A stretch of DNA of 4,873 bases from a virus. Lineage: Duplodnaviria > Heunggongvirae > Uroviricota > Caudoviricetes. Shown here one piece after another: positions 616 through 825 of this stretch. A model generated the notes under the pieces. That model was given only the letters and a program-made list of their open reading frames with translations, was not told the DNA's origin and made no database searches. How positions within the stretch are numbered: position 1 is the first letter of the stretch; each line of letters starts with the position of its first letter. The translations under genes and the position numbers were made by a program. The DNA is taken from the IMG/VR virus record IMGVR_UViG_2648501338_000012, one strand, 5' to 3'.

Positions 616-644
616 ATAATGAACCAATAGTTCGACATTATCAA
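616..644 (-). promoter_or_regulatory. Putative pL-like leftward early promoter (-35 TTGATA, 17-bp spacer, -10 CATTAT)
   Basis: On the minus strand, rc of 639-644 is TTGATA and rc of 616-621 is CATTAT, with a 17-nt spacer. Position is upstream of nutL and N. No experimental support; other promoter placements in 600-830 are possible. Confidence 0.3.
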
Positions 645-655
645 GAACTATTGGT
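623..655. repeat. Perfect 11-bp inverted repeat (ACCAATAGTTC, 11-bp spacer, GAACTATTGGT) overlapping the putative pL -35/spacer
   Basis: 623-633 accaatagttc and 645-655 gaactattggt are exact reverse complements. Candidate operator or hairpin; function not determinable from sequence. Confidence 0.5.
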
Positions 656-825
656 ACGAATTTTGGTGATTTATTAACTCTACGAAGTATGATTCTGATA
701 TATAAGGAAATTTATTTTTGAAAATGTGGCTGATGAAGGTTATGCGGCAGGGATCATAACTGCATGGTTTAGCGAGTTACATCAATAAATACAATTGGTT
801 ATGTTTTTTAGGTGGGCGAACGTGA

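What the first reader, a model, noticed from the sequence alone, without database searches (positions are those of the whole stretch)
616..660. Perfect 11-bp inverted repeat overlapping the putative pL promoter, unlike the OR operator sequences
ACCAATAGTTC-N11-GAACTATTGGT (623-655) is an exact palindrome centred on the predicted pL -35/spacer. It does not resemble the CGTACT-GAA-AGTACG operators at OR, although a GTACGA hexamer shared with OR lies adjacent at 654-659. It could be a binding site for a second regulator, a structured 5' RNA element, or the true OL in a form I cannot align.
Basis: seen in the sequence. Interest (0 to 1): 0.5.

Follow-up and report, generated by a model that had tools for sequence, protein, structure and literature searches.

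The report
Phage 933W left operators OL1 and OL2
The 11-bp inverted repeat is the shared core of two adjacent, already characterised binding sites (OL1 and OL2) for the CI repressor of Shiga-toxin phage 933W, which shut off the leftward early promoter, so it is ordinary and already known.

Summary
The repeat is real: ACCAATAGTTC (623-633) and GAACTATTGGT (645-655), 11/11 complementary, 11 nt apart. The window is 99.8% identical to the immunity region of Stx2 phage 933W.

Each arm is the core of a 15-bp pseudo-palindromic CI operator of the form xG(A/T)AC-N5-GT(A/T)Cx, the same form as OR1-OR3:
- OL1 = 620-634, TGAACCAATAGTTCG.
- OL2 = 644-658, AGAACTATTGGTACG.

Supporting evidence:
- A weight matrix built only from the three OR sites ranks these two 15-mers next best in the window.
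- They satisfy the published position rules for 933W repressor sites.
- GenBank GQ499363.1, identical here, annotates OL1 and OL2 at these places.
- The centres are 24 bp apart, as in lambda OL1-OL2. They bracket the predicted pL -35 and run into its -10.
- Phages with the 933W-type CI DNA-binding domain carry the pair. Phages that share N/nutL but have another repressor carry other operators at the same spot.
- One phage whose CI is 98.7% identical has an uncompensated 2-bp change. It breaks the repeat (9/11) but keeps a consensus operator. This argues against an RNA hairpin or a single long palindrome.

Its third option ("the true OL") is right. Already known; low interest.

The parts
620..634 (.). 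OL1, a 15-bp CI/Cro operator TGAACCAATAGTTCG (half-sites TGAACCA / CGAACTA, centre A627). It fills the pL spacer and overlaps the first 2 bp of the -10.
   Evidence: Fourth-best 15-mer in the window with a matrix trained only on OR1-3. Exact hit to GWACYNNNRGTWC. GenBank GQ499363.1 annotates 'OL1 repressor binding site' at window 620-635.
644..658 (.). OL2, a 15-bp CI/Cro operator AGAACTATTGGTACG (half-sites AGAACTA / CGTACCA, centre T651). It abuts the pL -35 and overlaps it by 1 bp.
   Evidence: Fifth-best 15-mer with the OR-only matrix. Exact pattern hit. GQ499363.1 annotates 'OL2 repressor binding site' at window 642-657. The half-site CGTACCA carries T at position 3 and C at position 6, the favoured non-consensus bases that PMC3317979 ascribes to OL2.
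623..633 (.). Left arm of the reported inverted repeat; equals positions 4-14 of OL1.
645..655 (.). Right arm of the reported inverted repeat; equals positions 2-12 of OL2.
639..644 (-). Predicted pL -35 hexamer TTGATA, lying mostly in the 9-bp gap between OL1 and OL2.
   Evidence: Consensus scan. Conserved in all E. coli-type contigs that carry the repeat. Same geometry as lambda pL. Not mapped experimentally here.
616..621 (-). Predicted pL -10 hexamer CATTAT, 17-bp spacer from the -35.
   Evidence: Inferred, not mapped here.
608..608 (-). Inferred pL transcription start (G, 7 nt after the -10). It is homologous to the lambda pL +1: lambda A-TCAGCAGGACGCAC versus window G-TCAGCAGGACGCAT.
   Evidence: Comparison. 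The immunity-specific sequence begins exactly here (alignment A1). That lambda +1 is 35582 comes from my own knowledge.
532..598 (-). nutL, as annotated in the 933W record; part of the pL leader.
   Evidence: AF125520.1 and GQ499363.1 annotations.
94..366 (-). Antiterminator gene N, the first gene of the pL operon. Here it is cut to 90 codons by an IS629 end.
2993..3700 (-). cI repressor gene (235 aa), the protein that binds OL1/OL2. Recognition helix S41-K42-G-V-S-K46.
   Evidence: PMC3317979
3693..3707 (.). OR3, TGAACCATGAGTACG
   Evidence: GenBank annotation
3725..3739 (.). OR2, AAAACTTTCAGTTCA
3749..3763 (.). OR1, CGTACTGAAAGTACG
3779..4006 (+). cro, the second protein expected to use the same operators.
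   Evidence: Cro binding at OL is inferred from the lambdoid paradigm.

Best explanation
The inverted repeat is the common 11-bp core of OL1 (620-634) and OL2 (644-658), the two left operators of phage 933W. Each is a 15-bp pseudo-palindrome xG(A/T)AC-N5-GT(A/T)Cx, bound by one dimer of the phage CI repressor and, during lytic growth, presumably by Cro. The two sites are mirror images of each other (12 of 15 positions identical when one is flipped). Read across both, they therefore look like one long palindrome with an 11-nt 'loop'.

The sites are 24 bp apart centre to centre and bracket the -35 hexamer of the leftward early promoter pL; OL1 also runs into the -10. CI bound there excludes RNA polymerase. 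N and the other leftward early genes stay silent in the lysogen, and a superinfecting phage of the same immunity is repressed. RecA-stimulated self-cleavage of CI frees the sites and fires pL.

Shown here: sequence identity with 933W, the match to the operator consensus, and co-occurrence with the CI DNA-binding domain. Taken from the literature or database annotation: CI binding to OL1 and OL2. Inferred: the promoter hexamers, the transcription start and Cro binding.
For: 1. The window is 99.8% identical to 933W (AF125520.1) over 99-4796.
2. A half-site matrix built only from the three GenBank-annotated OR operators scores 620-634 and 644-658 as the next-best 15-mers in the window (12.68 and 11.94). 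Only 5% of 300 shuffles give even one site at or above 11.94, and 0.3% give two.
3. GWACYNNNRGTWC with at most 1 mismatch gives 6 hits against 0.96 expected; none of 200 shuffles reaches 6. Two of the hits are these sites and three are OR1-3.
4. The five sites fit every rule stated in PMC3317979: 15 bp; five natural sites; position 2 is G except in one OR2 half-site; positions 4-5 are AC in all 10 half-sites; position 6 is T in 7 and C in 3 half-sites; the centre is A/T.
5. GQ499363.1, identical here, annotates OL1 and OL2 at window 620-635 and 642-657.
6. Two papers state that 933W has no OL3 and only five operators. No third site scores in this region.
7. Geometry: centres at 627 and 651 are 24 bp apart, as in lambda OL1/OL2 (35599/35623). 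The sites overlap the predicted pL.
8. Natural swaps: ST2-8624 and mEp234 are nearly identical to the window through nutL and the leader up to about 607, and again from about 785. In between they carry their own repressors' operators.
9. ST2-8624 CI shares the C-terminal domain (95% identity) but not the DNA-binding domain, and its operators differ.
10. Co-occurrence: the 60-nt OL segment is in 105 phage records, and a CI N-terminal domain at least 95% identical is in 106. Of 57 IMG/VR contigs with the exact repeat, all 53 with enough flank encode the CI N-terminal domain 1.3-2.8 kb away.
11. Lambda_2E9 (CI 98.7% identical) has OL2 = AGAACTATAAGTACG. The repeat falls to 9/11 with no compensating change, yet the half-site becomes CGTACTT, identical to an OR1 half-site.
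Against: - I could not open the primary footprinting and promoter-mapping papers (Tyler et al. 2004; Koudelka et al. 2004; Bullwinkle & Koudelka 2011). CI binding at these exact bases therefore rests on a GenBank annotation and on a later paper from the same laboratory whose figure with the sequences is not held as text.
- The GenBank OL2 feature (642-657, 16 bp) is offset by 1-2 bp from the symmetric 15-mer I call.
- PMC3317979 says OL1, like OL2, has non-consensus bases at both 3' and 6'. My OL1 has only the position-6 C.
- The 11-bp identity of the two cores, including centre bases the protein is not thought to contact, is more than the operator consensus alone requires.
Confidence: 0.95

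Rival explanations
1. The 33-bp unit is one long palindrome bound by a second regulator (another phage or host protein) rather than by CI.
For: The arms are perfect over 11 bp, more than the operator consensus demands. OL1-OL2 share a run of 11, against at most 9 for any other operator pair.
Against: - Each arm is fully explained as a CI operator.
- The perfect symmetry is not conserved where CI is: 9/11 in Lambda_2E9 and 10/11 in Salmonella Si3.
- HK022 has no long inverted repeat between its OL sites. In Acinetobacter phage Ab105-1phi the two OL sites share an 11-bp core in direct, not inverted, orientation.
- The 11 nt between the arms vary among contigs, apart from the -35 hexamer.
- The favoured centre (C at position 6, A/T-rich middle) matches the affinity preferences measured for CI itself.
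Confidence: 0.02
2. The repeat forms a hairpin in the pL transcript (a structured 5' RNA element) or a DNA cruciform.
For: The minus-strand RNA 680-600 folds with the 11-bp stem at -14.6 kcal/mol, z = -2.3.
Against: - Any perfect inverted repeat folds like this.
- The repeat lies upstream of the inferred +1 (about 608), inside the promoter, so pL does not transcribe it.
- The cI-stk transcript from the right meets terminator tM at 833-854 before reaching it.
- There is no Rfam match at E <= 1.
- The Lambda_2E9 and Si3 variants change one arm without compensation.
Confidence: 0.02
3. The repeat is a chance inverted repeat with no function.
For: 79 of 1000 shuffled windows contain at least one perfect 11-bp inverted repeat with a loop of 50 nt or less.
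Against: It sits exactly on the early promoter, matches the operator consensus on both arms, and travels with the CI DNA-binding domain in 53 of 53 testable contigs.
Confidence: 0.01

Closest known systems
OL1/OL2 of Shiga-toxin phage 933W (Tyler, Mills & Friedman 2004; Koudelka et al. 2004; Bullwinkle et al. 2012, PMC3317979)
   Same: It is this element. The sequence is 99.8% identical, with the same 15-bp sites, the same two-site OL lacking OL3, and the same CI.
   Different: Nothing in the operator region differs. The surrounding prophage does: IS629 ends flank the window, truncating N and interrupting O.
Bacteriophage lambda OL1-OL2 / pL
   Same: - Two adjacent repressor sites 24 bp apart centre to centre overlap the -35 and -10 of the leftward early promoter.
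- The transcribed leader is homologous from +1 onward.
- In lambda, OL1 and OL2 also share a long identical core, CACCGCCAG.
   Different: - Lambda sites are 17 bp with a different half-site, and lambda has a third site, OL3.
- Lambda CI binds cooperatively, whereas 933W CI is reported not to (PMC3317979).
- The shared core is in direct orientation in lambda and inverted here.
Phage HK022 repressor/operator system
   Same: - The CI DNA-binding domain is related: 50% identity over the N-terminal 76 residues.
- The operators are the same type, xG(A/T)AC-N5-GT(A/T)Cx.
- Three OR sites are spaced 24 and 33 bp, and an OL pair is spaced 24 bp.
   Different: - HK022 OL sites (TGTACTATTGGTACT / TGAACTTTAAGTACA) do not form a long inverted repeat.
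- The HK022 C-terminal domain differs, and its repressor is reported to be highly cooperative (my own knowledge).

Membership tests
933W-type CI operator (lambdoid immunity operator) | 15-bp pseudo-palindrome fitting the 933W repressor site rules: G at position 2, A/T at 3, invariant A-C at 4-5, T/C at 6, A/T centre. | tested here: met
   Both sites fit. Across all five sites, the position-6 tally is T in 7 and C in 3 half-sites, exactly as published (PMC3317979). The pattern scan gives 6 hits against 0.96 expected.
933W-type CI operator (lambdoid immunity operator) | Adjacent sites about 24 bp apart that overlap an early promoter. | tested here: met
   Centres at 627 and 651 are 24 bp apart. 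They overlap the predicted -35 at 644..639 and the -10 at 621..616. Lambda has the same 24-bp spacing. The promoter is predicted, not mapped here.
933W-type CI operator (lambdoid immunity operator) | The cognate repressor is encoded in the same immunity module, and the same site type is present at OR between cI and cro. | tested here: met
   cI is at 2993-3700. OR1-3 are at 3693-3763 with the same half-sites.
933W-type CI operator (lambdoid immunity operator) | Operator sequence changes when the repressor's DNA-binding domain changes, and is kept when it is kept. | tested here: met
   - ST2-8624, mEp234 and SH2026Stx1 have another DNA-binding domain and no such sites.
- Four imm-933W phages in different contexts keep the pair.
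- 53 of 53 IMG/VR contigs with enough flank have both.
- Record counts are 105 (OL segment) against 106 (CI N-terminal domain).
933W-type CI operator (lambdoid immunity operator) | Direct, sequence-specific binding by purified CI (footprint or EMSA). | not testable with these tools
   PMC3317979 reports that dissociation constants were measured for OL1 and OL2. GenBank GQ499363.1 labels them repressor binding sites. The primary papers are not held.
Structured cis-regulatory RNA (5' leader hairpin) | The element lies within a transcript. | tested here: not met
   The repeat (623-655) is upstream of the inferred pL +1 (about 608, minus strand) and downstream of terminator tM for the cI transcript. 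This rests on an inferred start site.
Structured cis-regulatory RNA (5' leader hairpin) | Base pairs are kept by compensatory change in relatives, or the element matches a known RNA family. | tested here: not met
   Lambda_2E9 and Si3 change one arm only. There is no Rfam hit at E <= 1.

The most novel reading that the evidence does not exclude
The near-identity of OL1 and OL2 might reflect a constraint beyond simple CI half-site recognition. Their cores match over 11 bp, including centre bases that CI is modelled not to contact. The xGAAC-CAATA-GTTCx form recurs at OL1 in phages whose CI is only 29-40% identical (Salmonella MS2 LVA, Acinetobacter MD-2021a). Candidate constraints are a DNA-shape requirement of the pL spacer, selection for equal affinity of two non-cooperative sites, or an additional factor. 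The evidence does not exclude this. The measured CI preferences (C at position 6, A/T-rich centre read indirectly) already explain most of it.
Probability: 0.08. Interest if true: 0.3.

Novelty: already known. Interest (0 to 1): 0.06.

Why it matters
These two sites hold the leftward early operon of a Shiga-toxin prophage silent, so they are part of the switch that decides whether Stx2 is produced. They have been mapped, annotated in GenBank and measured biochemically, so rediscovering them adds nothing new.

The practical lesson is for scanning. Two adjacent pseudo-palindromic operators with the same core read as one long 'hairpin-like' palindrome. Such a palindrome should be tested against the half-sites of the known operators before a new regulator or RNA element is proposed.

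Tried and rejected
- **Primary papers.** I tried to read Tyler 2004 (PMC524894), Koudelka 2004 (PMC524892) and Bullwinkle 2011 (PMC3133280); none is held.
- **Full-text search for the operator sequences.** It returned only unrelated primer matches.
- **RNA reading.** Rfam found nothing. The fold is unremarkable for a perfect repeat.
- **Larger imperfect palindrome around OL1.** It spans 611-624 / 630-643 at 79% (I2, TGATAAT...ATTATCA). I considered it as a possible divergent promoter or an extended site and rejected it. No plus-strand promoter is found, and the left flank differs in Lambda_2E9.
- **Alternative pL using GATAAT (642..637) as the -10.** Rejected: there is no acceptable -35 16-18 bp upstream (read).
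- **A third OL site.** None scores above background next to OL2, in agreement with the literature.
- **Origin of the IS629 junctions.** No complete E. coli genome holds either junction contiguously.

Full report
**1. The observation**

The window carries a perfect inverted repeat, ACCAATAGTTC at 623-633 and GAACTATTGGT at 645-655, with 11 nt between the arms. The 11-mer occurs nowhere else in the window, even with two mismatches. The only sigma-70-like promoter match in 300-1100 is on the minus strand: -35 TTGATA at 644..639, 17-bp spacer, -10 CATTAT at 621..616. The repeat therefore sits on the predicted pL.

Taken alone, the symmetry is only mildly unusual. Of 1000 dinucleotide shuffles of the window, 79 contain at least one perfect 11-bp inverted repeat with a loop of 50 nt or less.

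**2. Where the window comes from**

Positions 99-4796 are 99.8% identical to Shiga-toxin phage 933W (AF125520.1 9181-13878) and to many Stx1/Stx2 phages of the same immunity.

The 933W record annotates these features, in window coordinates:
- N at 94-366 (minus strand)
- nutL at 532-598
- terminator tM at 833-854
- stk at 1022-2068
- cI at 2993-3700
- OR3 at 3693-3707, OR2 at 3725-3739, OR1 at 3749-3763
- cro, cII and O

That record annotates no OL.

**3. What the repeat is**

Read on a 15-bp frame, the arms belong to two sites:
- 620-634, TGAACCAATAGTTCG
- 644-658, AGAACTATTGGTACG

Their half-sites are TGAACCA / CGAACTA and AGAACTA / CGTACCA. The OR half-sites are CGTACTG / CGTACTT (OR1), AAAACTT / TGAACTG (OR2) and TGAACCA / CGTACTC (OR3).

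A weight matrix built only from the six OR half-sites ranks the two OL 15-mers immediately after its own three training sites, out of all 4859 positions. Only 5% of 300 shuffled windows produce even one site at or above the lower OL score (11.94), and 0.3% produce two. The pattern GWACYNNNRGTWC, allowing one mismatch, hits six times against 0.96 expected. None of 200 shuffles reaches six. Five of the six hits are OR1-3 and these two sites.

So the claim that the palindrome does not resemble the OR operators is wrong.

**4. Agreement with published work**

PMC3317979 (Bullwinkle et al. 2012) states the following about 933W repressor sites:
- There are five natural sites: OR1-3, OL1 and OL2.
- Each is 15 bp and rotationally symmetric about a central base pair.
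- Position 2 is G-C in every half-site except one half of OR2.
- Positions 4 and 5 (A, C) are completely conserved.
- Position 6 is T in 7 of 10 half-sites and C in the other three.
- The centre is A-T or T-A.

My five sites satisfy every one of these rules, including the exact 7:3 tally. The paper also says OL2 carries the favoured non-consensus bases at 3' and 6'. Site 644-658 has the half-site CGTACCA, with T at position 3 and C at position 6. Two further papers state that 933W has no OL3 and only five operators.

GenBank GQ499363.1 is the immunity region of phage 27deltatox and is 100% identical here. It annotates 'OL1 repressor binding site' and 'OL2 repressor binding site' at window 620-635 and 642-657. 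I could not open the primary footprinting and promoter papers.

**5. Geometry and mechanism**

The centres at 627 and 651 are 24 bp apart, the same as lambda OL1/OL2 (35599 and 35623). OL1 fills the pL spacer and overlaps the first two bases of the -10. OL2 abuts the -35 and overlaps it by 1 bp. The 9-bp gap between the operators holds most of the -35.

On the minus strand, the sequence after the -10 reads TATCATC-G-TCAGCAGGACGCAT. Lambda reads GAGCAC-A-TCAGCAGGACGCAC, where that A is the pL start (the lambda +1 is from my own knowledge). The 933W start is therefore probably G608, and the repeat lies wholly upstream of the transcript.

The mechanism is the classical one:
- CI dimers on OL1 and OL2 occlude RNA polymerase at pL and keep N and the leftward operon off.
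- CI autocleavage after SOS induction releases pL.
- Cro is expected to use the same sites later.

Binding is taken from the literature. The promoter hexamers, the start site and Cro binding are inferences.

**6. Comparative tests**

*Swap.* ST2-8624 (H-19B immunity) and mEp234 (lambda-type operators) align almost perfectly with the window through nutL and the leader up to about 607, and again from about 785. In between they carry TTTATC..GATAAA or lambda TATCACCGC-type operators instead. ST2-8624 CI shares 95% identity with the 933W C-terminal domain but has an unrelated N-terminal domain. Operator type therefore follows the DNA-binding domain.

*Retention.* Stx2_EH0787, phi315, PhiR12_2 and Lambda_2E9 have the 933W-type CI in different contexts, with different N genes or different genes between OL and cI. 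All four keep the OL pair.

*Counts.* The 60-nt OL segment occurs in 105 phage records, and a CI N-terminal domain at least 95% identical occurs in 106. Of 57 IMG/VR contigs with the exact repeat, 53 encode the CI N-terminal domain 1.3-2.8 kb away. In the other four, the position and orientation of the repeat suggest cI lies beyond the end of the held DNA; I did not check this further.

*Variation.* These variants change the inverted repeat but keep the operators:
- Lambda_2E9 (CI 98.7% identical) has OL2 = AGAACTATAAGTACG. The repeat drops to 9/11 with no compensating change in the other arm. The new half-site, CGTACTT, is exactly an OR1 half-site.
- Salmonella Si3 (CI 88% identical) has TGAACCAATAGTACG / AGAACTATTGGTACA, 24 bp apart, with the repeat at 10/11.
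- HK022 has an OL pair 24 bp apart with no long inverted repeat.
- Acinetobacter phage Ab105-1phi has an OL pair whose shared 11-bp core is direct rather than inverted.

What is conserved is two operators at fixed spacing, not the palindrome.

**7. Rivals**

An RNA hairpin is not supported. The element is not in the inferred transcript, there is no Rfam match, the fold is what any perfect repeat gives (-14.6 kcal/mol, z = -2.3), and the natural variants are uncompensated.

A second regulator that recognises the whole 33-bp palindrome is unnecessary, and the loss of symmetry in relatives that keep CI speaks against it.

OL1 and OL2 are more alike than the consensus requires: 12 of 15 positions when one is flipped, with a shared run of 11, against at most 9 for other pairs. 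The shared features are C at position 6 and an A/T-rich centre, which are the bases CI was measured to prefer. Lambda OL1 and OL2 also share a long core.

**8. Verdict**

The element is the already characterised OL1-OL2 operator pair of phage 933W. Novelty: already known. Interest: low.

Noticed in passing
window 1-96 and 4790-4873: Both ends of the window are IS629 ends in the same orientation: the 3' end of the element on the left and its 5' end with the orfA start on the right. The left copy cuts N to 90 codons (127 in 933W) and the right copy interrupts O after about 105 codons. A prophage with this arrangement should lack functional N and O. In phage Stx2a_F422, IS629 sits 183 bp further left with N intact, so the window looks like an IS-adjacent deletion. 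Neither junction is found contiguous in 5426 complete E. coli genomes.
   Followed up: partly
window 1272-1286: There is a sixth operator-like 15-mer, AGTACATCTAGTACG, inside the stk coding region. It scores 11.09 with the OR-only matrix and is the only non-operator hit of the IUPAC pattern. It has A at position 6 in one half-site, a base reported to bind poorly. It is absent from imm-933W phages that lack stk. Probably chance, but not tested.
   Followed up: partly
L013 5009-5047 and 8713-8784 (Acinetobacter phage MD-2021a contig); also L036, L064, L071: A 35% G+C phage contig has a CI only 29% identical to 933W CI, with K42 and K46 conserved. It carries almost the same operator set. Its OL is TGAACCAATAGTTCA / AGAACTATTGGTTCA, a perfect 14-bp inverted repeat, 24 bp apart, around a TTGACT -35. 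It has three OR sites spaced 33 and 24 bp. The operator DNA (83% over 52 nt) is far better conserved than the proteins.
   Followed up: partly
L017 (HK022), L016 (Ab105-1phi), L018 (phiARM81mr), L019 (D14L), L014/L015 (Salmonella Si3, MS2 LVA): The operator type xG(A/T)AC-N5-GT(A/T)Cx recurs across Escherichia, Salmonella and Acinetobacter phages with CI N-terminal domains 35-90% identical to 933W CI. These show the 24 / 32-33 bp OR spacing and a 24-bp OL pair. The Aeromonas and Pseudomonas phages have matching sites, but the spacing is only partly seen. In HK022 a further site, GGTACTAAAAGTACA, lies just downstream of cro (L017 3670-3684). From memory this is probably the published far-right operator.
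   Followed up: partly
L003 1893-2597 versus window 2993-3700: There is mosaicism inside the repressor gene. ST2-8624 (H-19B-type) CI is 95% identical to 933W CI over residues 82-235 but unrelated over the DNA-binding domain. This matches the statement in review PMC3202840.
   Followed up: yes
window about 783-856: The tM terminator region is conserved across different immunity types and matches lambda 35754-35824 at 94.5%. It forms the right-hand boundary of the variable OL segment.
   Followed up: no
IMG/VR loci L020-L076: The distance from OL to cI ranges from 1.3 to 2.8 kb among contigs with identical operators and CI. Different cargo genes (the stk cassette or others) therefore occupy the OL-cI interval.
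   Followed up: no
window 611-643: An imperfect larger palindrome is centred on OL1 (TGATAATAATGAAC / GTTCGACATTATCA, 79%). It arises because the -35 region and the sequence just past the -10 both contain TGATAAT in opposite orientation. It is not conserved in Lambda_2E9.
   Followed up: partly
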